Source of the DNA: an uncultured Verrucomicrobia subdivision 3 bacterium
GTDB taxonomy: Bacteria; Verrucomicrobiota; Verrucomicrobiia; Limisphaerales; UBA11358
NCBI GenBank assembly: GCA_903944085.1
Contig: CAJAQO010000083.1
Span: forward strand, 6,590 to 70,589
Reading direction: 5' to 3'
Length of the DNA stretch: 64,000 bases
Shown here: positions 20,492 through 63,653 of the stretch, piece by piece
Numbering within the stretch: the stretch's first letter is position 1
Layout: each line of letters opens with the position of its first letter
The notes under the pieces: model-generated
What the model was told of the DNA's origin: nothing
What the model saw: the letters and a program-made list of their open reading frames with translations, nothing else
Databases searched by the model: none
Translations under genes and position numbers: made by a program

Positions 20492-21085
20492 ATGCTGGAT
20501 TTTCTCCACCAGCTATTCAGCCACCTCTGCGGCCAGAATCTGGCGCATACCTGGTCGCTCGGCGGCGAAGCGCTGCCGTGCTGTCAGCGCTGCACCGGCG
20601 TCTATGTCGGCGCATTCGTCGCGGCGCTGCTGCATCTCGTCCGGCGACCGCAACCAACGAGTTTCTGGCGCTGGCTCAACGGCGCGTTTCTGCTGTTCAT
20701 GGTTCCCGCCGGATTTCATTGGTTCCCGCAAGGCCCGGAACTGCGCGCTGCTTCGGGAATTCTTTTTGGCTTCGGCATCGTTGCTTTCCTGTGGCTGCCA
20801 TTGCCGGAGAAATTTACGATTTACGATTTACGATTTACGAGTGCGCGTGACGACCGGCGCGTAAATCGTAAATCGCAAATCATAAATGCCCTGGGCCTTC
20901 TTGCCGCGATCATCGGCACGCCGCTGCTCGGCGCGAGTGAAAATTCCCTCGCCGCCATCGCGCTCACGCTGCTGACCGCCGGCGGCGCGCTCGCGCTCGC
21001 GCTGCTGCTGGTGGCCAATCTTTTTCTCGCGGCCCGCGGATTGTGGCGGTGGTTTTTCCAACCGGCACCGCGCGTGGCTGCATGA
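20492..21085 (+). CDS. DUF2085 family membrane protein
   Basis: N-terminal Cys pattern CGQN...CCQRCTGVY followed by TM helices. Interrupted in frame by repeat element 20813-20887. Confidence 0.6.
   Translation: MLDFLHQLFSHLCGQNLAHTWSLGGEALPCCQRCTGVYVGAFVAALLHLVRRPQPTSFWRWLNGAFLLFMVPAGFHWFPQGPELRAASGILFGFGIVAFLWLPLPEKFTIYDLRFTSARDDRRVNRKSQIINALGLLAAIIGTPLLGASENSLAAIALTLLTAGGALALALLLVANLFLAARGLWRWFFQPAPRVAA
20813..20887. repeat. Heptamer-arm hairpin element (75 nt, in frame in the DUF2085 gene)
   Basis: (TTTACGA)x4, a 21-nt GC-rich spacer, then TAAATCG TAAATCG CAAATCA TAAAT. The arms are inverted complements. Encodes FTIYDLRFTSARDDRRVNRKSQIIN. Confidence 0.9.
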
Positions 21086-22599: not shown

Positions 22600-24765
22600 T
22601 TAAACAATTTCCACCGGACATTTCGGCAGCGCGTCGAGAAACGCCTGGCCGTATTGCTTCGTCAAAATCCGGTTGTCCAAAACCACCACGATGCCCGTGT
22701 CCGTTTTCGTGCGGATCAACCGGCCCACGCCCTGACGAAATTTCAAGATCGCTTCCGGCAAAGAAAATTCGCCAAAGGAATTTCCGCCGCGCGCTTCAAT
22801 CGCCTCGATGCGTGCCTCGATCAGCGGATGATCCGGCACGGCGAACGGCAGGCGGGTGATAATAACATTCGAGAGCGCCTCGCCCGGCACGTCCACGCCT
22901 TGCCAGAAACTGTCCGTGCCGAACAACACCGAGTCCACGTCGTCCTTGAATTTTTCCAGCATCGTCGAACGCGGTGTGCCGGTGCCCTGCACAAACAGCT
23001 CCAGCTTGAGCTTGTCAAAAAACGGCCGCATCCGGTCCGCGACTTCCTGCATCAGCTTGTAGCTAGTGAACAGCACGAACGCCTTGCCGTGCGTCTGTTT
23101 CACGAAATGCTCGATCCAATGTTCCAGCGCCTCCGCATAGCCGTGCTCGCGCGGGTCGGGCATTTTTTTTACGGTGAATAATTTCATCTGCCGCTCGTAG
23201 TCAAACGGCGTGCCGACCTGCAACTGGGTCGCCGCTTCACAGCCGACTCTTTTTGCAAAATAGTTCAGCGGCGAGTTGAAAGTTGAAGGTTGAAGGTTGA
23301 AGGTTTTTTTGCGTGGCGCAGTGGGAGAACTTTCAACCTTCAACTTGGAACCTTCAACTGCTCTGGCCGAAATGGCCAGCGTCGCGCTCGTCATGATGAC
23401 GCTCGTGTCGGTCTCGAACAGGCGGCGGCGCAAAAATTCCGCCACGTCCACCGGCGCGGCATTGAGCGACAGATTCCGCTGCGACTTGCCGCCGCGTTCG
23501 ACCCAGTAAACATGATCCTCCGCCTGCTGGCTCAAAAATTCTGCGACCTCAATTTTCAATTCGCCGAGCCGACGGTTGCATTCGATCAGCTCCTGCCCGA
23601 TGTCCTTGTCATCGCTCGTTTTGACGAGTTCGCTGACGGCTTCGCGCAAGCGCTGGATCGGCAGCGTGACATTGTCTTTAACCAGTTCTGCGCGACGGAT
23701 GCGCAGTTCCTTCCATTCGCGCCGGCGGGCGGAAGAGTTTTCGCCGCCGGAAAATTTCGGTTTTGCCGTCGCCTGAATTTCTTCGCACGCGCTCTCGACG
23801 TTTTCAAAAAACTTGTCCGACTCGCTCAAAATTTCCGCGACAAGCTGCACGGCTTTGCCTTGGCGCAGCGTGGCGAGCAGGCCTTTTTCCGTGCGCGGAT
23901 TCCACAGCCGGTTCAGCGAATAACGCACCTGCCCGCTCGACACGCTCAAGCCGATGTGCCGCGACGCCACGCTCTCCATCGTGTGCGCCTCGTCGAAAAT
24001 CACGAAGTCGTTTTTGAACAGAATGCCGCCTTCCATCTCCTCGTCCACGCCGCCGAGCAGCGTGAAAAACAGCGTGTGGTTCAAAATCACCACGTCCGCC
24101 GACAAAATCCGGTTCCGCACGCGCTGGAAAAAACAGACCTCGTGGTCGCGCGCAAAATCGGACTGGTGCCCGCACGTTTTCGGCGAGCAAAGTCCGCGCT
24201 CGGAACAGACCTGCGCCCAGACTTTCGGATCCGGCTCGATGGAAAAATCCGACAAACTGCCGTCCTTGGTTTCCTTCGACCACTCGTAAATGCGCTGCAA
24301 TTCCTCGGCTTCGGACGACGTGAACAAATTGCCCGATTGTTGCATCGCCTTTTGCAGGCGGCGCGTGCAGAGATAATTGGCGCGGCCCTTCAGCATCGCA
24401 TAGCTGAATTTTACCGGCTCCGGCAGCGCGGCCAAAACGCCCGCCAACATTGGCAAATCTTTTTCCGTGAGCTGCTCCTGCAAATTGATCGTGTGCGTGG
24501 AAACGATGGCTTTTTTCTTCTGCGCCACGGCAAAAAGAATTGCCGGAATCAAATACGCCAGCGATTTGCCGACGCCCGTGCCCGCCTCGACTGCGAGATG
24601 CTCGCGATTCTGCAACGCCCGCGCCACGGCCATGGCCATTTCCTGCTGTTGCGGGCGGAACTCGAAATTTTTTGCGCGCGACAAAATGCCCGTCGGCGAA
24701 AAAATTTGTTCGACCTGCGCAACCAAGTCGGTGCCGCTGGGCTGAATTTCAGACAGCGAAATCAT
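22600..24765 (-). CDS. dinG: ATP-dependent DNA helicase, DinG/Rad3 (XPD-like, Fe-S) family
   Basis: Trimmed to MISLSEIQ... (ATGA overlap with the upstream gene). Motifs AVEAGTGVGKSLAYL, DEAH-type FDEAHTME, a Cys cluster between motifs I and II, and C-terminal VVVLDNR. Confidence 0.85.
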   Translation of the reverse strand: MISLSEIQPSGTDLVAQVEQIFSPTGILSRAKNFEFRPQQQEMAMAVARALQNREHLAVEAGTGVGKSLAYLIPAILFAVAQKKKAIVSTHTINLQEQLTEKDLPMLAGVLAALPEPVKFSYAMLKGRANYLCTRRLQKAMQQSGNLFTSSEAEELQRIYEWSKETKDGSLSDFSIEPDPKVWAQVCSERGLCSPKTCGHQSDFARDHEVCFFQRVRNRILSADVVILNHTLFFTLLGGVDEEMEGGILFKNDFVIFDEAHTMESVASRHIGLSVSSGQVRYSLNRLWNPRTEKGLLATLRQGKAVQLVAEILSESDKFFENVESACEEIQATAKPKFSGGENSSARRREWKELRIRRAELVKDNVTLPIQRLREAVSELVKTSDDKDIGQELIECNRRLGELKIEVAEFLSQQAEDHVYWVERGGKSQRNLSLNAAPVDVAEFLRRRLFETDTSVIMTSATLAISARAVEGSKLKVESSPTAPRKKTFNLQPSTFNSPLNYFAKRVGCEAATQLQVGTPFDYERQMKLFTVKKMPDPREHGYAEALEHWIEHFVKQTHGKAFVLFTSYKLMQEVADRMRPFFDKLKLELFVQGTGTPRSTMLEKFKDDVDSVLFGTDSFWQGVDVPGEALSNVIITRLPFAVPDHPLIEARIEAIEARGGNSFGEFSLPEAILKFRQGVGRLIRTKTDTGIVVVLDNRILTKQYGQAFLDALPKCPVEIV
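23275..23358. repeat. Heptamer-arm hairpin element (84 nt, in frame in dinG)
   Basis: GTTGAAA (GTTGAAG)x3, a 25-nt spacer, then AACTTTC AACCTTC AACTTGG AACCTTC AAC. Encodes VEGSKLKVESSPTAPRKKTFNLQPSTFN on the minus strand. Confidence 0.9.
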
Positions 24766-25670
24766 TTCAATGGCGCGCTGCGCAAAACCACTTTCAGCGC
24801 CGCTGTTTTTCCCGGCGCGAGCGGAATTTTGTTTTGTTTCACATTGCCGGATTCCACGCAAACCATTTTCAAATGTTCATCCGTGCCCCAATCGGCCGGC
24901 ATTTTCTGCGTCGTCCACGGATTCCAGACGACGGTGGATTGCGAATGGAATTTCTCCACCGTGATTTTGCGTTGCAGCTTTGCGTCGTGAATTTCCACGG
25001 TGCCGGCGTTGTCAGGATAGACGCGATTGGTTTCCTGCGCGACGCGCAGCGCCGCCGGGTCGCCACTTCGCCGCGCGCCATTCGCGCCAAACGCAAAATC
25101 ATCGAACGGCGCGTTTTGTAGGCCGGTGAGCGAAACGGCGCTGATATCGCCAACTTTAAAATACGTGTGCAGGCAGTTTTCGATCTCCAGCGTTTCGTCG
25201 CAAGCATCGTTCGTGGCAATCAATTCCATCGTCAAACTGTCGGCGACAGTCACGACAAATTCCGTGCGCAAATTTTTCCAGGTTTCGCGGCCGGGAATTG
25301 GCGGCAGCGCGAAACGCACCGTCGCGTTGCCATCGGGCGAGGCCACCACTTTAATCAGCTCCCACGCGGCGAGCCGCGCGAAACCGTGGCCGACGTCGGT
25401 GCCGCGCGGGCCAAACCACGGGAAACAGATCGGCACGCCGCCGCGAATCGGCTTGCCCGGCGCGAAATCACTTTTCGCGCTCATGAAAATCAGCGGCGGC
25501 TCGCCGTTTTTCTGGAAGTGGGTGAGATGCGCGCCGTGCGGATAAATTTCAGCCGTGCTCCACGGCGTGCGGATTTTCACGAGCTGCAGGCCGCCGTGAC
25601 CGGTGGCGATTTCGACGCGGCCGGCGATTTCGTGCCGGCGCAAATTTTCCAAGGCGATTTTGGTTTCCAT
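24762..25670 (-). CDS. D-hexose-6-phosphate mutarotase (aldose 1-epimerase family, YeaD-like)
   Basis: 302 aa. Motif IRGGVPICFPWFG is typical of glucose-6-phosphate 1-epimerases. Confidence 0.8.
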   Translation of the reverse strand: METKIALENLRRHEIAGRVEIATGHGGLQLVKIRTPWSTAEIYPHGAHLTHFQKNGEPPLIFMSAKSDFAPGKPIRGGVPICFPWFGPRGTDVGHGFARLAAWELIKVVASPDGNATVRFALPPIPGRETWKNLRTEFVVTVADSLTMELIATNDACDETLEIENCLHTYFKVGDISAVSLTGLQNAPFDDFAFGANGARRSGDPAALRVAQETNRVYPDNAGTVEIHDAKLQRKITVEKFHSQSTVVWNPWTTQKMPADWGTDEHLKMVCVESGNVKQNKIPLAPGKTAALKVVLRSAPLK

Positions 25671-27207: not shown

Positions 27208-29865
27208 TCAAGCTTCGCGCGGTGGTTGCGAAAACAAATCCAACTGCGGCGGCGGCGCGAGCGATTTTAATTTTTCCCGATCCTGCTGGCGGCGCGGCTG
27301 GCGCACGTTGCCTTCCGGCGTGAGTTCGGATTCTTCGAGGTTGCCGAGAATTTGTTTAGCGCGCTCCAAGACTTCCTTCGGCACGCCCGCGAGCCGCGCG
27401 ACTTGGATGCCGTAACTCTTGTCCGTGCCGCCCTCGACAATTTTGCGGAGAAAAACAATCTGGTCATGCCACTCGCGCACGGCGACGTTGAAATTTTTGA
27501 TGCGCGGCAATCGCGCGGCCAGCTCCGTCAGCTCGTGATAATGCGTGGCAAACAAAGTTTTCGCGCCGACCTGATTGTGCAGAAATTCCACGATGCTCCA
27601 CGCGAGCGATAGTCCGTCGAACGTGCTCGTGCCGCGGCCGATTTCGTCCAGCACGATGAGGCTGCGGGCGGTAGCGTTGTTCAAAATGTTCGCCGTTTCC
27701 GTCATCTCGACCATGAACGTGGACTGGCCGCGAGACAAATCATCGCTCGCGCCGATGCGCGTGAAAATGCGGTCCACCAGATCAATCCGCGCTTCCACCG
27801 CCGGCACAAAACTGCCGGTGTGTGCGAGCAGCGTGAGCAGCGCCACCTGCCGGATGTAAGTGGATTTGCCGGCCATGTTCGGCCCGGTGATGAGCGCGAT
27901 TTGGGGCATTTCCAATTTCCGATTTTCAATTTCCAATTTGGCCGGCATCACCGAAGAGTTTTCAATTGGCAATTGGCAATTGGCAATTCCCAATCCGGTG
28001 TCATTCGGCACGAAGCGCTCCTCGACGAGCTGCTGTTCCAATACCGGATGCCGGCCGTCGCGGATTTGCAGCACGCCTTCATCGGCAATTTGTGGACGGC
28101 AATAATTATGCAGTCGTGCCGTTTCCGCGAACGACGCGAGCACATCCAATTGCGCCAGCGCAAAAGCGGTTTGCTGGATTTTCGGCAACTGGCCCAGCAC
28201 TTCCTCGCGCACGCGCTGAAAAATTTCGTATTCCAATTTCACGCTGCGTTCTTCCGCGCCGAGAATTTTACCTTCCATCGCTTTCAACTCCGGCGTGATA
28301 AAGCGCTCGCCGTTCGCGACCGTCTGCTTGCGATGATAATGCGGCGGCACCTTGTCCAGATTGGATTTGGTGACTTCGATGTAATAGCCAAAGACGGAAT
28401 TGAACCGGACTTTGAGCGAGGAAATTCCGGTGGCGGCAATTTCGTCGGCCTGCAATTTGGCAATCCAATCCTTGCCGCCGCGCTGGGCGGTGCGCAGTTC
28501 GTCGAGCGCGGTGTCAAAGCCGTCGCGGATCATGCCGCCTTCCTTGATCGGCAACGGCGGTTCGTCCACGATGGCGCGGGAAATGATCTCAACGAGATCG
28601 GGCGATTCGGAAATCTGCGAATCCAATTCTAAAATCAAGCTGGTGGGGCGAGCGTCCTCGCGAGCCGGAGCCTCATCGTGAATTAGATTTTCGGCTCGCG
28701 GGGACGCTCGCCTCACCGTGGCCAAAATTTGTTTCAGCGCTGGAATTTGTTCCAGCGCCAACCGCAGCGCGACAAGGTCACGCGCGTTGCCGCTGCCGGA
28801 ACTCAGGCGGCCCAGCGTGCGCTCCAAATCACGCACCTTCGCAAGCTGCTGGCGAAAGCTGTCGAGACTAAAAGTATTTTCAAGGAACGTCTGCACGGCT
28901 TCCTGCCGGCGGCAGATCGGCTCCACTTTGGCGAGCGGTTGCGACAGCCAGTTGCGCAGGAGTCGCGCGCCCATCGGCGTGACGGTTTTATTGAGCGCGC
29001 CGTAAAGACTGGCATTGCGCGGGGCGTCGTGATGCTGCGGCTCAAGAATTTCCAGATGCCGCAGCGTCGTGTAATCCAGCGTGAGAAAATCGCTGCGCTG
29101 ATAGAATGAAATGCGCGTCAGATGCTTCACGTCGCGGCGCAGATTTTGGGTGAGGTAATGCAGCGCGCCACCCGCCGCGCCGATGGCGGCGGTTTTATCC
29201 TTCAGCCCGAATCCGTCAAGCGAAGCCACCTTGAATTGTTCCTTCACCGTGTAAAACGCGGTTTCGGGCGCGAACGTCCAGTCGTCGTAGCCGCTCAAAA
29301 TTCGGAATGCGCCGCGCAGCAAATCGCGCAGCGAAGTCGCTTCCGTTGGAAAAATAATTTCCGCTGGACGCAAACGTTCCAGTTCGGCGAGCAGCGCGGC
29401 TTCGTTTTCCAATTCGGTCGTCAGAAAATCACCCGTCGTCAAATCCACCAGCGCGAGGCCGAAGATTTTTCCCGACGGATAAACGGATGCCAGAAAATTG
29501 TTCCGCTCGGCGACCAGCATCCGTTCGTCGAAATGCGTGCCGGGCGAAAGGATTTGCGTGACCTCGCGATTCACTAATTTTCCCGGCCGCGCTTCTTCGG
29601 TCTGATCGCAGATGGCCACCTTGCGTCCGCTCTTCAGGATGCGGGCGATGTAGCCATTGGCGGCGTGATGTGGCAGGCCGCACATCGGCACGCCATTGCG
29701 CGCGGTGAGCGAGAGATTGAGCAACTGCGCGCCGGCCTGCGCATCCTCAAAAAACATCTCGTAAAAATCGCCGAGCCGGAAGAGCAGCAGCGCGTCTTTC
29801 GGCAGTTCGCCTTTGATGCGGCGATACTGCGCCATCATGGGCGTGAGTTGGGCTTCGGCGGACAT
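27208..29865 (-). CDS. mutS: DNA mismatch repair protein MutS
   Basis: N-terminal TPMMAQYRRIK...FYEMFFEDA, Walker A ITGPNMAGKSTYIRQ, Walker B LIVLDEIGRGTSTFDG, and C-terminal FATHYHELT. Confidence 0.97.
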   Translation of the reverse strand: MSAEAQLTPMMAQYRRIKGELPKDALLLFRLGDFYEMFFEDAQAGAQLLNLSLTARNGVPMCGLPHHAANGYIARILKSGRKVAICDQTEEARPGKLVNREVTQILSPGTHFDERMLVAERNNFLASVYPSGKIFGLALVDLTTGDFLTTELENEAALLAELERLRPAEIIFPTEATSLRDLLRGAFRILSGYDDWTFAPETAFYTVKEQFKVASLDGFGLKDKTAAIGAAGGALHYLTQNLRRDVKHLTRISFYQRSDFLTLDYTTLRHLEILEPQHHDAPRNASLYGALNKTVTPMGARLLRNWLSQPLAKVEPICRRQEAVQTFLENTFSLDSFRQQLAKVRDLERTLGRLSSGSGNARDLVALRLALEQIPALKQILATVRRASPRAENLIHDEAPAREDARPTSLILELDSQISESPDLVEIISRAIVDEPPLPIKEGGMIRDGFDTALDELRTAQRGGKDWIAKLQADEIAATGISSLKVRFNSVFGYYIEVTKSNLDKVPPHYHRKQTVANGERFITPELKAMEGKILGAEERSVKLEYEIFQRVREEVLGQLPKIQQTAFALAQLDVLASFAETARLHNYCRPQIADEGVLQIRDGRHPVLEQQLVEERFVPNDTGLGIANCQLPIENSSVMPAKLEIENRKLEMPQIALITGPNMAGKSTYIRQVALLTLLAHTGSFVPAVEARIDLVDRIFTRIGASDDLSRGQSTFMVEMTETANILNNATARSLIVLDEIGRGTSTFDGLSLAWSIVEFLHNQVGAKTLFATHYHELTELAARLPRIKNFNVAVREWHDQIVFLRKIVEGGTDKSYGIQVARLAGVPKEVLERAKQILGNLEESELTPEGNVRQPRRQQDREKLKSLAPPPQLDLFSQPPREA
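27908..27997. repeat. Heptamer-array element (90 nt, in frame in mutS, directly before the Walker A codons)
   Basis: ATTTCCA ATTTCCG ATTTTCA ATTTCCA ATTTGGC, about 20 nt, then (CAATTGG)x3 CAATTCC CAATCCG. The arms are only partly complementary, through CCAATT/AATTGG. Confidence 0.88.
28642..28717. repeat. 26-nt imperfect inverted repeat with 24-nt spacer inside mutS
   Basis: GGTGGGGCGAGCGTCCTCGCGAGCCG pairs with CGGCTCGCGGGGACGCTCGCCTCACC (2 mismatches). Encodes part of RRASPRAENLIHDEAPAREDARPT. Confidence 0.88.
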
Positions 29866-29963
29866 GCGGCGGGAAAGCTATCCGCGAACGTGGACAAAAT
29901 CGAACAAGTTTTGTGCAAGACTGGCGTTGACACTCCGAAGTGGTTTTGTTGAACTTCGCGTCC

Positions 29964-32646
<2,683 letters not shown>

Positions 32647-32695
32647 GCCGGAAATTTACGGGAAAATCGGCCATCGCCAATCGCCAATCATAAAT

Positions 32696-37763: not shown

Positions 37764-39140
37764 GTGAATATTACGAATTTGAATCCAGCTATGGACATTG
37801 GCGCCAGTTCGTGGCTGGTGGACATGGAGGACCATCGCATTTTGCTCGACGCCGGGATGCATCCCAAGCTCGAAGGCCGCGATGCCCTGCCGCTGTTTGG
37901 CAAAGCCAGCGACGCGGAAGTGGACGCCATTGCGCTGTCGCATTGCCATCACGACCACGTCGGCGCGCTGCCGGTGGCCTGCGCGCGCTTTCCCAAGGCG
38001 CATGTGCTGATGACGGAGTTGAGCTATCTGATCATCGAGCGGGTGCTGCACAATTCGGTGAACGTGATGACGCGTCAGCGCGACGAGTTGGGCATCCGCG
38101 AATACCCGCTCTACACGCACGACGAGCTGGATGAAATCGCGCCGCAGTTTCAAGGCTTCAAATACAACCGTGAGGTGGAATGGGGCTCGTTCAAAAAAGC
38201 GCGCGCGGGCGTGCCGTCGCCGACGCTGGAATTTTTCGACGCCGGCCACACGCTCGGCTCGGCGGGGATTTTATTGCGCGGAAAAAAAGAGACGCTGTTT
38301 TTCACCGGCGACGTATGTTTCCACGACCAGACGATCCTGCGCAGCGCCCGGTTCGAGGATGTGAAGGCAGATGTGCTGATCATGGAAACGACGCGCGGCA
38401 ATCGCGAGGTGCCGAAGGATTTTACCCGCGACGACGAGGTGAACCGGCTGGTGGCAGCCATCCACGCGGCGCAGGAAAAAAAGGGCTGCGTGCTTCTCCC
38501 GTCGTTTGCGCTGGGCCGCACGCAGGAAATTCTGGCGCTGCTCGCGCTGCTGATGCGCGAGGGGAAATTGAAGAAGCAGCCGATTTACATCGGCGGGCTG
38601 GGCCGCGTGTTCACGGAGCTTTATGACATCGAGGCGCACCGCACGCACCGGCAGCACACGAATCTGAATTTGAACGAGGCGCTGCAATTGATCGTGCTGG
38701 AAAAAGGCGCGGCGGAAAACATGAAGTTGAGCGGCGGTAAAATTTTTGTCATCACCGCCGGCATGATGAGCGAGAATACCGCGGCACACGGCCTGGCGGC
38801 GCGGATGATCGGCGACGAGCGGCAGAGCATTTTCTTCGTCGGCTATGCCGACCCGGATTCGCCGGCCGGAAGATTGAAAGCCGCGAAAGCGGGTGAAACC
38901 TTTGTGTTCAGCCCGAGCGCGGGTCGCGTGACGAAAAATTGCGACATGCAGGAATTTGATCTGACAGCGCACGCGAACCGGGGCGACTTGCTGGAATTTG
39001 TCGGCCAAGTTTCGCCGCGCGCCATTTTGCTCGGCCACGGTGACGATGACGCCCGCGCGTGGTTCGAGGAGCAAATCCGCGCGCGCTGGCCCAAAATCAA
39101 AGTCTTCCAGCCGCAGCCGGGCAAAAAAGTTGAAGCGTGA
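37764..39140 (+). CDS. MBL-fold metallo-hydrolase, beta-CASP RNA-metabolising nuclease family
   Basis: GTG start. HCHHDHVGALP (HxHxDH), and 458 aa with a beta-CASP-length C-terminal half. Confidence 0.78.
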   Translation: MNITNLNPAMDIGASSWLVDMEDHRILLDAGMHPKLEGRDALPLFGKASDAEVDAIALSHCHHDHVGALPVACARFPKAHVLMTELSYLIIERVLHNSVNVMTRQRDELGIREYPLYTHDELDEIAPQFQGFKYNREVEWGSFKKARAGVPSPTLEFFDAGHTLGSAGILLRGKKETLFFTGDVCFHDQTILRSARFEDVKADVLIMETTRGNREVPKDFTRDDEVNRLVAAIHAAQEKKGCVLLPSFALGRTQEILALLALLMREGKLKKQPIYIGGLGRVFTELYDIEAHRTHRQHTNLNLNEALQLIVLEKGAAENMKLSGGKIFVITAGMMSENTAAHGLAARMIGDERQSIFFVGYADPDSPAGRLKAAKAGETFVFSPSAGRVTKNCDMQEFDLTAHANRGDLLEFVGQVSPRAILLGHGDDDARAWFEEQIRARWPKIKVFQPQPGKKVEA

Positions 39141-39186
39141 TCGGTGATTCGTTGAAAGGTCGAATTGCCAAATCGTTGAACCAGCA

Positions 39187-39332
39187 GACAGTGTCCTAAT
39201 CCTAATCCTAATCCTAATCGTCATCGTAATCGTCATCGTAATCGTAATCGTAATCGTAATCGTCATCGTAATCTTAATCCGCTTCAAACCACGATTACGA
39301 TTAAGAACAAGATTAAGATCAGGACAGCACCA
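39187..39332. repeat. Hexamer-array hairpin element, MITE-like (146 nt) between convergent genes
   Basis: 14 tandem hexamers (CCTAAT x4, then CGTAAT/CGTCAT/CTTAAT), a 14-nt spacer, and 5 inverted units (GATTAC GATTAA GAACAA GATTAA GATCAG). Terminal TGTCCTRATC inverted repeats. Flanked by identical AACCAGCA at 39179-39186 and 39333-39340. Confidence 0.85.
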
Positions 39333-39380
39333 ACCAGCAATTCAATTCAACGATTCAACGGGTTAACCCGGCCACGAATT

Positions 39381-40592
39381 TCAGTGGCCGCCGCTGACGA
39401 CATTGGCCAGGTTGAAGATCGGCAGGAACATGCAGATCACCATGCCGCCGATGACAACGCCGAGAAACACGATCAGCAGCGGTTCGATGAGGGACATGAG
39501 GCCGGAGAGCACCGTTTCGATTTCCTCGTCCAGAAAGTCAGCCACGCGTTCAAGCATGTTGTCAATGTTGCCGGTCTGTTCGCCGGCGCTCAACATGCGG
39601 ATGATCATGGTGGGGAACACCGGATGTTTGGCGAGCGCGGAGGAAATGCCCTCGCCGCGCTCGATGTCGAGCGCGGACGCTTTGATGGCTTTTTCCATGA
39701 CGGTGTTGCCGACCGTCTGCGAGACGATCTGGAGCACTTCCAAAATCGGGACACCGCTGCGCACCAGCGAGGCCAGCGTGCGCGTGAACCGCGCAAGGCA
39801 GATTTTGTGCGCGATGGATCCAAAAACGGGCAGCTTGATGCGCTGGGCGTCCCAAAAATCACGCCCCTGTTTGGTCTTGATGAACGACAGCCAGCCCCAG
39901 ACGCCGGCACCCGCCAGGACAATCAAATAAATCAGGTCATGCTGGACAATTTCACTGATACCGATCATGAACTCGGTCGGGGCCGGCAGCTTGGCCCCAA
40001 AGCCGGAATAAACTTCCTTGAACGTCGGGATCACGCGCACCAGCAGGAAAATGGTGATGACAATCGCCACGACTGTCACGACGGTTGGATACATGAGCGC
40101 GGTCTTAACTTTCTTGCGCAGCCGCTCGGTGTTTTCCAAATAAGTGGCGAGGCGCGCGAGAATTTCCGCGAGCAGGCCGCCTTTTTCGCCGGCACCCACC
40201 ATGGAAACATACAACCGGTTGAACGCCTTCGGATGCCGCATCAGCGCTTCGGAAAAACTTTCGCCCGCCTCCACCCGCGAACAGATGTCCTTGATCGTGT
40301 CGCGCATGACCTTGTTGGTGGTCTGCTCGGCCAGCGCCTGGAGCGACTGCACAATCGCGATGCCCGCGTCAATCATCGTGGCCAGTTGCCGCGTGAACAC
40401 CACCAGGTCGGCGAGCTGCACCCGGCCGCCTTTGGTCTGGCCGCGCTTGGCCATCTTCTCCTTGATCTCGACCACCAGCAAGTTGCGGTTGAGCAGCGCT
40501 GCGATGGCCGCCTGCTCCGAGAGCGCTTCGACGGTGTTGCGGATTTCGCGGCCCGAAGCAGTTTCGCGGGCGGTGTAGGCAAATATAGGCAT
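39381..40592 (-). CDS. Type II secretion / type IV pilus platform protein (GspF/PilC family)
   Basis: Trimmed to MPIFAYTARETASGREI... Two GspF repeats (FTRQLATMIDAGI..., FTRTLASLVRSGVPI...) and three TM segments. Confidence 0.9.
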   Translation of the reverse strand: MPIFAYTARETASGREIRNTVEALSEQAAIAALLNRNLLVVEIKEKMAKRGQTKGGRVQLADLVVFTRQLATMIDAGIAIVQSLQALAEQTTNKVMRDTIKDICSRVEAGESFSEALMRHPKAFNRLYVSMVGAGEKGGLLAEILARLATYLENTERLRKKVKTALMYPTVVTVVAIVITIFLLVRVIPTFKEVYSGFGAKLPAPTEFMIGISEIVQHDLIYLIVLAGAGVWGWLSFIKTKQGRDFWDAQRIKLPVFGSIAHKICLARFTRTLASLVRSGVPILEVLQIVSQTVGNTVMEKAIKASALDIERGEGISSALAKHPVFPTMIIRMLSAGEQTGNIDNMLERVADFLDEEIETVLSGLMSLIEPLLIVFLGVVIGGMVICMFLPIFNLANVVSGGH

Positions 40593-40959
40593 GGCTGTTC
40601 TGGTGAATAATTCATGGCGTGCGAATTGCAAGAGCAATTCATTGCGCCGCGAAATAAACAAGCACGATTTGTTCCAGCGGCATCGCGCGGCGTCCGATTT
40701 ATTCCGCCCAAAATTTCAGATTTTGCCCCGTTTTTACCGGTCAGAAAATGGGCGGCGCGGGCATTTATTTGCTGGCGTTCTGGCAAACGACTTGACGGCA
40801 ACAGCTTGGCCAACCGTATTTGCAAAAAAAAAAGATTGTCATTTGCCCCGCTTTTCCTTAATTTTGACACCAATGGCACCTTGTGGTGCTAGGAGCGAAC
40901 CGGTTTCGTTCCACTTATCACAGGTAAAAAACAAACATACAAACTAACTGGAGGAACAG

Positions 40960-61471: not shown

Positions 61472-61553
61472 ATTTTCAGCCTAGCGCAGCCGCGCGCGCG
61501 AGACGACGTAAAATTATTCGCGGCTAGGCGCTCTTTACGGCATTTTTATCGAA

Positions 61554-63653
<2,100 letters not shown>

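What the first reader, a model, noticed from the sequence alone, without database searches (positions are those of the whole stretch)
39179..39340. Hexamer-array element bounded by terminal inverted repeats and an 8-bp direct repeat (target-site-duplication-like)
The 146-nt element (14 + 5 inverted hexamer units) lies between the convergent beta-CASP nuclease and pilC genes. It has TGTCCTAATC / GATCAGGACA termini and is flanked on both sides by identical AACCAGCA (39179-39186 and 39333-39340).

That is the classic footprint of transposition (a MITE). It is the strongest hint here that at least some of these arrays are, or were, mobile rather than pure slippage products.

The flanks also carry inverted CGTTGAA-containing segments (39150-39180 versus 39341-39360). 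The insertion may therefore have landed in a pre-existing bidirectional terminator hairpin.
Basis: seen in the sequence. Interest (0 to 1): 0.62.

Follow-up and report, generated by a model that had tools for sequence, protein, structure and literature searches.

The report
IS1-type MITE with expandable hexamer array
The hexamer-repeat hairpin between the nuclease and pilC genes is one copy of an ordinary small non-coding "hitch-hiker" transposon (a MITE) that IS1-type transposases move, and its left arm later grew by repeat slippage.

Summary

- **The element.** It spans 39187-39331 (145 nt) and is flanked directly by AACCAGCA on both sides.
- **The family.** It is one of about 30 copies in this genome. 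The consensus is 91 nt: GGCAGTGTCC, five TAATCN units, a GCTTCAAACCAC loop, five GATTAN units, then GGACAGCACC.
- **Target-site duplications.** Each copy sits between its own 8-bp direct repeat. Of 26 other copies, 8 match 8/8 and 17 match at least 7/8. Mismatched-partner controls average 2.1/8.
- **The likely mobiliser.** The 14-nt ends (GGYRSTGTCCTAAT) are the ends of 2.2-2.7 kb IS1-family elements in congeners. Those elements also make exact 8-bp duplications.
- **This genome's transposase.** Only one truncated copy of the transposase gene is present.
- **The insertion site.** Ten congeners have 48-91 nt at this site and no element. The insertion hit the loop of an older octamer-repeat hairpin.
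- **Array growth.** The left arm has 14 units against the family's five, and unit number varies between metagenomes.
- **The other arrays.** The genome's roughly 100 other tandem-unit hairpins show no duplication signal, so this result does not extend to them.

Verdict: a new member of a known kind, of modest interest.

The parts
39179..39186 (.). Left copy of the 8-bp target-site duplication, AACCAGCA.
   Evidence: repeat D5. It abuts the first base of the element as defined by the family consensus.
39187..39200 (+). Left terminal inverted repeat, GACAGTGTCCTAAT. The family consensus is GGCAGTGTCCTAAT and the IS ends are GGTAGTGTCCTAAT.
39197..39280 (+). Left-arm hexamer array of 14 TAATCN/TCATCG units. 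The family norm is 5, so this arm is 9 units (54 nt) longer.
   Evidence: Length classes in steps of 6 nt are. Alleles shorter by 6 and 12 nt are.
39281..39292 (+). Hairpin loop GCTTCAAACCAC, conserved among the family copies of this genome.
39293..39322 (+). Right-arm array of 5 inverted units: GATTAC, GATTAA, GAACAA, GATTAA, GATCAG.
39318..39331 (+). Right terminal inverted repeat, ATCAGGACAGCACC. The consensus is ATTAGGACAGCACC.
39332..39339 (.). Right copy of the 8-bp target-site duplication, AACCAGCA.
39142..39180 (+). Left arm of the older, outer hairpin, built from TCGTTGAA-type octamers. The perfect 10-bp stem half AATCGTTGAA lies at 39171-39180.
   Evidence: D4, I13, I14, I17; fold of the reconstructed empty site.
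39343..39360 (+). Right arm of the outer hairpin (ATTCAACG x2). The stem half TTCAACGATT lies at 39346-39355.
37764..39140 (+). Upstream convergent gene: a metallo-beta-lactamase / beta-CASP nuclease.
   Evidence: PF10996, PF00753, PF07521.
39381..40661 (-). Downstream convergent gene: a PilC/GspF-type platform protein.
   Evidence: PF00482, 225 bits.

Best explanation
The element at 39187-39331 is a non-autonomous transposon (a MITE) derived from, and most likely moved in trans by, an IS1-family DDE transposase.

Proposed mechanism:
1. The transposase recognises the 14-nt terminal inverted repeats GG(C/T)(A/G)(G/C)TGTCCTAAT. This step is inferred from the identity of the ends between the MITE and the IS.
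2. It joins the element to target DNA cut with an 8-bp stagger. Repair of the gaps gives the 8-bp direct repeat. This step is shown by the duplications.
3. Here the target was AACCAGCA, at the stem/loop junction of a pre-existing octamer-repeat hairpin between two convergent genes. This step is shown.
4. The interior of the element is only a hairpin: five TAATCN hexamers, a 12-nt loop and five inverted units.
5. After insertion, replication slippage added nine units to the left arm only. Unit number still varies between natural populations. Variation by 1 and 2 units is shown. That the ancestral allele at this site had five units is inferred from the family consensus, with one supporting contig.
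6. In this genome the only detectable partner transposase gene is truncated, so the family is probably no longer moving here. This step is inferred.

The element is best seen as a selfish passenger that is transcribed within a 3' untranslated region. No host function is shown.
For: - **Family.** BLAST of the core against the window's own genome gives 27 hits that span the loop, of which 26 are distinct loci. Modal length is 91 nt and mean identity to the consensus is 92.4%. The terminus search adds further copies.
- **Duplications.** Each copy has its own 8-mer, for example AAAAATCC, GTAAATTT, GTTGACAG, TTCGTTTC, CGAAGATT, GGTATTTC and CCGGCGGC. Of 26 copies, 8 match 8/8 and 17 match at least 7/8, against a control mean of 2.1. 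Copies in congener G018 show CGGCAAGC (8/8) and GCTGGTTT/GCTGGCTT (7/8).
- **Autonomous partner.** Complete elements in three congeners measure 2687, 2449 and 2224 nt. Their ends are GGTAGTGTCCTAATTTG or GGTAGTCACCTAATTTG, and they have exact 8-bp duplications: TAAAATCG, CGTAATTG and GCCATTTC.
- **Transposase identity.** The 278-aa transposase of these elements hits Pfam DDE_Tnp_IS1 at 32.2 bits, above the cut-off of 24.1. Its best NCBIfam match is the IS1 family model (E 1.4e-18).
- **Agreement with the literature.** IS1-family ends are GGnnnTG and its direct repeat is 8-9 bp (PMC10425158 Table 8; PMC6807381).
- **Absence in relatives.** The orthologous spacer in 10 congeners is 48-91 nt without the element.
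- **Window copy.** With 54 nt of array removed it is 89/91 identical to the family consensus.
- **Slippage.** Family lengths are 85, 91, 97, 103, 121 and 145 nt, in steps of 6. Metagenome contigs anchored in the unique left flank lack 6 nt (X2) or 12 nt (X3, X4) of the TAATCC run.
- **Transcription.** Metatranscriptome contigs run from the flanks into the element.
Against: - No transposition event was observed.
- The insertion here, and two other copies on contig C141, are fixed in all metagenome populations examined.
- An exact 24-mer for the empty site is absent from two public contig collections.
- The closest genome with an 'empty' site is only about 87% identical, and its spacer is not alignable base for base.
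- The partner transposase scores below NCBIfam's IS1 cut-off (67.5 against 100 bits).
- The full elements are 2.2-2.7 kb with passenger genes, outside the classical IS1 size range.
- Presence of the MITE and of IS1-like transposase genes is not clearly associated across the 61 genus genomes covered by both searches. My tally is transposase present in 16 of 25 genomes with the MITE, against 20 of 36 without it.
- The 54-nt-shorter allele seen in RNA contigs may be an assembly-path artefact. The X12 contig runs on into another copy.
Confidence: 0.9

Rival explanations
1. The element is not mobile. It is one more locally grown tandem-unit hairpin, like the genome's heptamer arrays, and the flanking 8-mer is coincidence or part of the old hairpin.
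For: - The architecture (array, loop, inverted array) is the same as in about 116 paired arrays genome-wide.
- The array does change by slippage.
- 'Naked' TAATCN hairpins without IS1-type ends and with unique loops also exist.
Against: - About 30 copies share termini, unit order and loop.
- Each copy has a different 8-bp direct repeat exactly at its ends.
- Other arrays give no such signal.
- Full IS elements with the same ends exist.
Confidence: 0.03
2. It is a MITE, but a different transposase family that also has GG...TG ends and 8-bp duplications moves it: IS6/IS26 or IS1595 (ISPna2 group).
For: - GGnnnTG ends and 8-bp duplications are shared by IS6/IS26 (PMC6807381).
- From memory of the ISfinder table, the ISPna2 group of IS1595 has GGCnnTG ends and 8-bp repeats.
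- The truncated copy in the window's genome gives a weak PF13610 (IS240/IS6) hit.
Against: - No PF12762 (IS1595 DDE) match in the window's genome.
- The elements that carry the identical 14-nt ends encode a protein whose best models are IS1. NF033558 gives E 1.4e-18 against E 2.4e-5 for IS6, and PF03400 scores above its cut-off.
Confidence: 0.06
3. At this locus the element is kept for a host function rather than being a neutral passenger. It could act as a bidirectional transcription barrier or an RNA-stabilising 3' hairpin that replaces the canonical terminator present in relatives.
For: - Most congeners have a classical AAAACCGCCGG...CCGGCGGTTTT terminator in this spacer. This genome and its closest relative have repeat hairpins instead.
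- No other terminator-like site lies in 38900-39600.
- The insertion is fixed in pond, peat and permafrost populations.
- The fold is better than shuffled sequence, with z -3.2 to -4.9.
Against: - The stem is AT-rich with a mismatch every sixth base, no T-run follows it, and the predicted DNA stability is modest at about -15 kcal/mol.
- One-armed expansion to 14 units degrades the hairpin, which argues against selection on pairing.
- RNA contigs pass into and across it.
- Family copies sit in all kinds of gene contexts.
Confidence: 0.1
4. The TAATCN hairpin core is an independent, recurrent module of the generic array class that became trapped between IS1 ends. On this view the MITE is a vehicle for an array hairpin, not an internally deleted IS whose end was amplified.
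For: - The same IS1-type ends also bracket unrelated 112-nt GC-rich interiors.
- About 10 TAATCN hairpins in this genome have no IS1-type ends, unique loops and no duplication.
- Earlier unchecked notes report TAATCN arrays in other phyla and inside an IS4-type MITE.
Against: - The IS end itself contains CCTAAT, a rotation of the TAATCC unit. The array could therefore have been seeded from the end by slippage.
- The direction of descent cannot be told from these data.
Confidence: 0.2

Closest known systems
IS1 family insertion sequences and their non-autonomous derivatives
   Same: - The ends fit GGnnnTG.
- The duplication is 8 bp, within the family's 8-9 bp.
- The partner's DDE transposase matches PF03400.
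- The partner has an N-terminal helix-turn-helix and a D-E-x-W-x-F motif region like IS1 InsAB'.
   Different: - The partner elements are 2.2-2.7 kb and carry passenger genes: a PIN-domain protein and two unknown ORFs. Classical IS1 is 740-1180 bp.
- The transposase is a single ORF and scores below NCBIfam's IS1 cut-off.
- The MITE interior is not IS-derived sequence but a hexamer-repeat hairpin.
BrickBuilt MITE of Porphyromonas gingivalis (PMC4596501)
   Same: It is a bacterial MITE whose body is a tandem repeat of variable copy number. It is intergenic, present in about 20 copies per genome, and transcribed.
   Different: - BrickBuilt carries 23-nt units in one direct array.
- Here the units are 6 nt, arranged as two inverted arrays that form a hairpin.
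- Here a matching autonomous IS and clean 8-bp duplications are identified.
BOX elements of Streptococcus pneumoniae and Correia/NEMIS elements of Neisseria (from my own knowledge)
   Same: They are short intergenic hairpin-forming mobile repeats that are co-transcribed with neighbouring genes. BOX has a variable number of internal boxB modules.
   Different: - Correia elements make TA duplications.
- BOX has no clear duplications and its modules are 45 nt.
- Neither is related in sequence or in transposase family to this element.
Tandem heptamer arrays: cyanobacterial STRR-like repeats and the other tandem-unit hairpins of this same genome
   Same: They share the layout of 3-5 tandem short units, a loop and the inverted units. 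TAATCN is also one of the unit types seen without IS ends.
   Different: - Those arrays have unique loops, no conserved termini and no target-site duplication above control.
- Some lie in frame inside genes.
- The element studied here has all three transposon hallmarks.

Membership tests
MITE (miniature inverted-repeat transposable element) | Small, non-coding element. | tested here: met
   Length is 145 nt here and 91 nt in the consensus. The body is only arrays and a loop.
MITE (miniature inverted-repeat transposable element) | Terminal inverted repeats. | tested here: met
   The two ends are GGCAGTGTCCTAATC and, as the reverse complement of the right end, GGTGCTGTCCTAATC. They are conserved across copies.
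MITE (miniature inverted-repeat transposable element) | Target-site duplication of fixed length, with a different sequence at each copy. | tested here: met
   The duplication is 8 bp. Of 26 other copies, 8 match 8/8 and 17 match at least 7/8, and the window copy matches 8/8. The control mean is 2.1/8.
MITE (miniature inverted-repeat transposable element) | Multiple dispersed copies. | tested here: met
   About 30 copies in this genome. The family is present in 29 of 77 genomes of the genus.
MITE (miniature inverted-repeat transposable element) | An autonomous element with the same ends and the same duplication length. | tested here: met
   Three complete IS copies in congeners have GGTAGT(GT/CA)CCTAAT ends and exact 8-bp duplications. 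A truncated copy lies at C168:5767-8678 of this genome.
MITE (miniature inverted-repeat transposable element) | Presence/absence polymorphism, or an empty site. | tested here: inconclusive
   The element is absent from the orthologous spacer of 10 congeners. No base-exact empty site was found. The insertion is fixed in all conspecific metagenome populations examined.
IS1 family (for the partner element) | DDE transposase of IS1 type. | tested here: met
   PF03400 scores 32.2 bits against a cut-off of 24.1. NF033558 is the best NCBIfam model at E 1.4e-18, but its 67.5 bits fall below the 100-bit cut-off.
IS1 family (for the partner element) | Ends GGnnnTG and a direct repeat of 8-9 bp (PMC10425158 Table 8; PMC6807381). 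| tested here: met
   The ends are GGTAGTG... and the duplications are 8 bp.
IS1 family (for the partner element) | Size of 740-1180 bp, with the transposase as the only content. | tested here: not met
   The elements are 2224-2687 nt and carry PIN-domain and unknown passenger ORFs. From memory, ISfinder has a long IS1 subgroup (ISMhu11), but I did not check this here.
IS1595 family (considered as partner) | DDE_Tnp_IS1595 transposase present. | tested here: not met
   No PF12762 match in the window's genome.

The most novel reading that the evidence does not exclude
The TAATCN array hairpin may be a self-standing, recurrent module of the same unexplained class as the genome's heptamer hairpins. 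IS1 ends would have captured it, and the resulting MITE would then spread it. The arrays would act as iterated binding sites for a protein, either the transposase's DNA-binding domain or a host factor. The one-armed growth from 5 to 14 units seen here would be a dated, natural read-out of how such arrays grow.
Probability: 0.18. Interest if true: 0.55.

Novelty: new member of a known kind. Interest (0 to 1): 0.3.

Why it matters
- It separates two things that look alike in this genome. One is a conventional IS1-driven MITE with clear transposition footprints. The other is a much larger, still unexplained population of tandem-unit hairpins that lack such footprints. Work on the heptamer-array puzzle should not count this hexamer family as evidence that those arrays transpose.
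- It gives a clean, dated example of array growth. The growth is in place, on one arm and in whole units, and it varies among wild populations.
- It documents an IS1-like element with passenger genes, and its MITEs, across an uncultured verrucomicrobial genus.

Tried and rejected
- **IS1595 as partner.** The ends and 8-bp repeat recalled the ISPna2 group, but the genome has no PF12762 match.
- **IS6 as partner.** Only weak hits were found.
- **An IS630-like element** whose flank carries GGCAGTGTCTTAAT (C75 and C17). It is a different family and I did not follow it further.
- **Rfam.** Only sub-threshold plant miRNA-precursor hairpins matched.
- **Terminator and promoter scan.** Nothing was found.
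- **Hairpin loops as the general target of the family.** Reconstructed empty sites are not generally structured: mean z is -0.6, and 5 of 24 fall below -2.
- **Exact empty-site 24-mer and filled left-junction 27-mer** in public metagenome and genome contig collections.
- **Presence/absence polymorphism of two other copies** in four metagenomes. Both copies are fixed.
- **Association between MITE presence and IS1-like transposase presence** across 61 genomes. None is clear. My tally is 16 of 25 against 20 of 36.
- **MITEs built on the variant end GTCACCTAAT.** None were found. That end occurs only on full elements.
- **The 54-nt-shorter allele in RNA contigs.** I treat it as suggestive only. 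Its junction words are shared with other copies, and one of the two contigs is visibly chimeric.

Full report
**What is there**

- AACCAGCA occurs at 39179-39186 and again at 39332-39339.
- Between the two copies lie 145 nt, made of four parts:
  - a left end, GACAGTGTCC;
  - 14 hexamers of the TAATCN/TCATCG type at 39197-39280;
  - a 12-nt loop, GCTTCAAACCAC;
  - five inverted units (GATTAC GATTAA GAACAA GATTAA GATCAG) followed by GACAGCACC.
- The element lies between two convergent genes. One is a beta-CASP/metallo-beta-lactamase nuclease gene that ends at 39140. The other is a PilC/GspF gene on the minus strand that ends at 39381.
- Outside the 8-mers the flanks carry a second inverted repeat built from TCGTTGAA/ATTCAACG octamers. 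It includes a perfect 10-bp pair at 39171-39180 and 39346-39355.

**It is a family, and every copy has its own 8-bp duplication**

The window lies in a 5.79-Mb, 335-contig assembly.
- BLAST of the core (39251-39331) against this assembly gives 27 hits that span the loop. Two of them are the same locus at overlapping contig ends.
- Fourteen copies are exactly 91 nt. Their consensus is GGCAGTGTCCTAATCCTAATCGTCATCGTAATCTTAATCCGCTTCAAACCACGATTACGATTAAGAACAAGATTAAGATTAGGACAGCACC.
- Mean identity to the consensus is 92.4%, and the median pairwise distance is 12 differences.
The direct repeats therefore abut it.
- The 8 nt outside the two ends are identical in 8 of 26 other copies and match at 7 or more positions in 17 of 26. 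Each copy has a different 8-mer: AAAAATCC, GGCGCTTG, GTAAATTT, GTTGACAG, TTCGTTTC, CGAAGATT, GGTATTTC, CCGGCGGC and others.
- Pairing the left flank of one copy with the right flank of another gives 2.1 matches on average. Only 3 of 650 such pairs reach 7 or more.
- A search by termini adds a few more copies, including a short one at C96:21866 with a perfect GGTTGCCG duplication.
- That search also finds two other small families of 112 nt with GC-rich palindromic interiors. They carry the same 14-nt ends.

**The partner transposon**

- The shared end, GG(C/T)(A/G)(G/C)TGTCCTAAT, also occurs once on its own at C168:5767, as GGTAGTGTCCTAATTTG. It lies 1.5 kb upstream of a transposase gene at C168:7268-7849.
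- That gene is cut short after about 186 of 278 codons, where IS66-like coding sequence follows. It is the only homologue in the assembly.
- Homologues are common in the genus, in 36 of 61 genomes.
- Three congeners hold complete copies of 2687, 2449 and 2224 nt. These have perfect inverted ends, GGTAGTGTCCTAATTTG or GGTAGTCACCTAATTTG, and exact 8-bp duplications: TAAAATCG, CGTAATTG and GCCATTTC.
- The 278-aa protein matches Pfam DDE_Tnp_IS1 above its cut-off (32.2 against 24.1 bits). Its best NCBIfam model is the IS1 family (E 1.4e-18), though below that model's cut-off. IS6 is far weaker at E 2.4e-5.
- ISfinder's family table, as reproduced in PMC10425158 (Table 8), gives IS1 ends of GGnnnTG and direct repeats of 8-9 bp. 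PMC6807381 notes that IS1 and IS6/IS26 share the GGnnnTG feature.
- No IS1595-type transposase is present.
- The full elements are longer than classical IS1. They carry a PIN-domain ORF and two ORFs with no family match.

**Empty sites**

- Synteny of the two genes is kept in the genus.
- In 10 congeners the spacer between them is 48-91 nt and has no element.
- Most of these spacers carry a textbook bidirectional terminator, AAAACCGCCGG...CCGGCGGTTTT.
- The closest genome is about 87-88% identical in the flanking genes. It has a heptamer-repeat hairpin there instead (GTTGATG / CATCAAC).
- Removing the element and one 8-mer from the window sequence gives an 87-nt spacer. In it, AATCGTTGAA pairs with TTCAACGATT, and the duplicated AACCAGCA sits at the stem/loop junction. 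The insertion therefore did land in an older hairpin, one of the genome's tandem-unit hairpins.
- Nothing shows that this hairpin was a terminator. No T-run or terminator-like site is found.
- Landing in a hairpin is not a rule for the family. Only 5 of 24 reconstructed sites are clearly structured.
- A base-exact empty site was not found in the two public contig collections.

**Slippage after insertion**

- Family members measure 85, 91, 97, 103, 121 and 145 nt, which are steps of one hexamer. Either arm can change on its own.
- The window copy is 89/91 identical to the consensus once 54 nt of the left array are removed. It is therefore a young, little-diverged copy that gained nine units on one arm.
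- Pond, peat and permafrost metagenomes hold the same insertion.
- Contigs anchored in the unique left flank lack 6 nt (X2) or 12 nt (X3, X4) of the TAATCC run. One run (X1) reproduces the window allele.
- Two metatranscriptome contigs join 39202 to 39257, which is exactly the canonical five-unit arm. In one of them (X18) both unique flanks are present without a mismatch.
- I treat this 54-nt-shorter allele as suggestive only, for two reasons. These are de Bruijn contigs whose junction words also occur in other copies, and the X12 contig runs on into another copy.
- RNA contigs entering the element from both sides indicate that it is transcribed. The caveat is that DNA can be present in such libraries.

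**What it does not explain**

- The genome holds about 116 paired inverted arrays of 6-8-nt units, with about 40 unit types.
- The other families (ATTTACG, GAATGAT, ACGCAAAG, ATTTCCA and more) have a different loop in every copy and no shared termini.
- Their flanks show no 8-mer duplication beyond control. One of 97 matches 8/8 and 10 of 97 match 7/8, against 1% and 8% in controls. The TAATC hexamer set gives 5 of 18 at 8/8 and 5 of 18 at 7/8.
- Some of these other arrays lie in frame inside long ORFs.
- About ten TAATCN hairpins also lack IS1 ends and have unique loops. The hexamer hairpin core and the IS1 ends are therefore separable modules.
- These data do not decide how the array arose. 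It may have been seeded from the CCTAAT in the IS end, or a pre-existing array hairpin may have been trapped between IS ends.

**Verdict**

This is a MITE with genuine transposition footprints, and its array also slips.
- It is a new family of a well-known kind. Its nearest analogue in body plan is the BrickBuilt MITE with an internal minisatellite (PMC4596501).
- It is probably inactive in this genome.
- No host function is shown. One-armed expansion argues against selection for the hairpin.

Noticed in passing
window 27908-27994 (also 23275-23358, 62424-62454, 62958-62989): Heptamer-array hairpins lie inside long open reading frames without breaking them. The first sits just upstream of the Walker A codons of a MutS-like 889-aa ORF (27208-29877, minus strand). 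The others lie in ORFs 22600-24876 (minus) and 61512-63653 (plus).
   Followed up: partly
whole genome (G000); window examples at 20812-20887 and 32613-32689: About 116 paired inverted arrays of 6-8-nt units occur, in about 40 unit types. Within a unit type the arms are alike, but the loop is different in every copy. They have no conserved termini and no target-site duplication above control. Their origin remains unexplained.
   Followed up: partly
G000 C168:5767-8678 (outside the window); L018 867-3553, L020 876-3324, L023 906-3129: The IS1-like partner element carries passenger genes. One is a PIN-domain ORF. The others are a conserved ORF of about 237 aa and one of about 104 aa, neither with a family match. 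In the window's genome the transposase is truncated where IS66-like coding sequence begins.
   Followed up: partly
G000 C218:36250-36361, C130:962-1073, C38:35592-35703, C151:219: Two further 112-nt MITE-like families have the same GGYRSTGTCCT(A/G)AT ends but GC-rich palindromic interiors. Type A gives 54 BLAST hits in the genome.
   Followed up: partly
L003-L012 (orthologous spacers in congeners) against window 39141-39380: Most congeners have a canonical bidirectional intrinsic terminator between the nuclease and pilC genes. This genome and its closest relative have tandem-unit hairpins there instead and no T-run terminator.
   Followed up: no
G000 C75:28829 and C17:523: An IS630-like element (DDE_3-type motif PPYSPDFNPIE) lies next to a sequence, GGCAGTGTCTTAATAG, that resembles the MITE terminus. 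The sequence is duplicated at two contig ends. This may be coincidence or a nested insertion.
   Followed up: no
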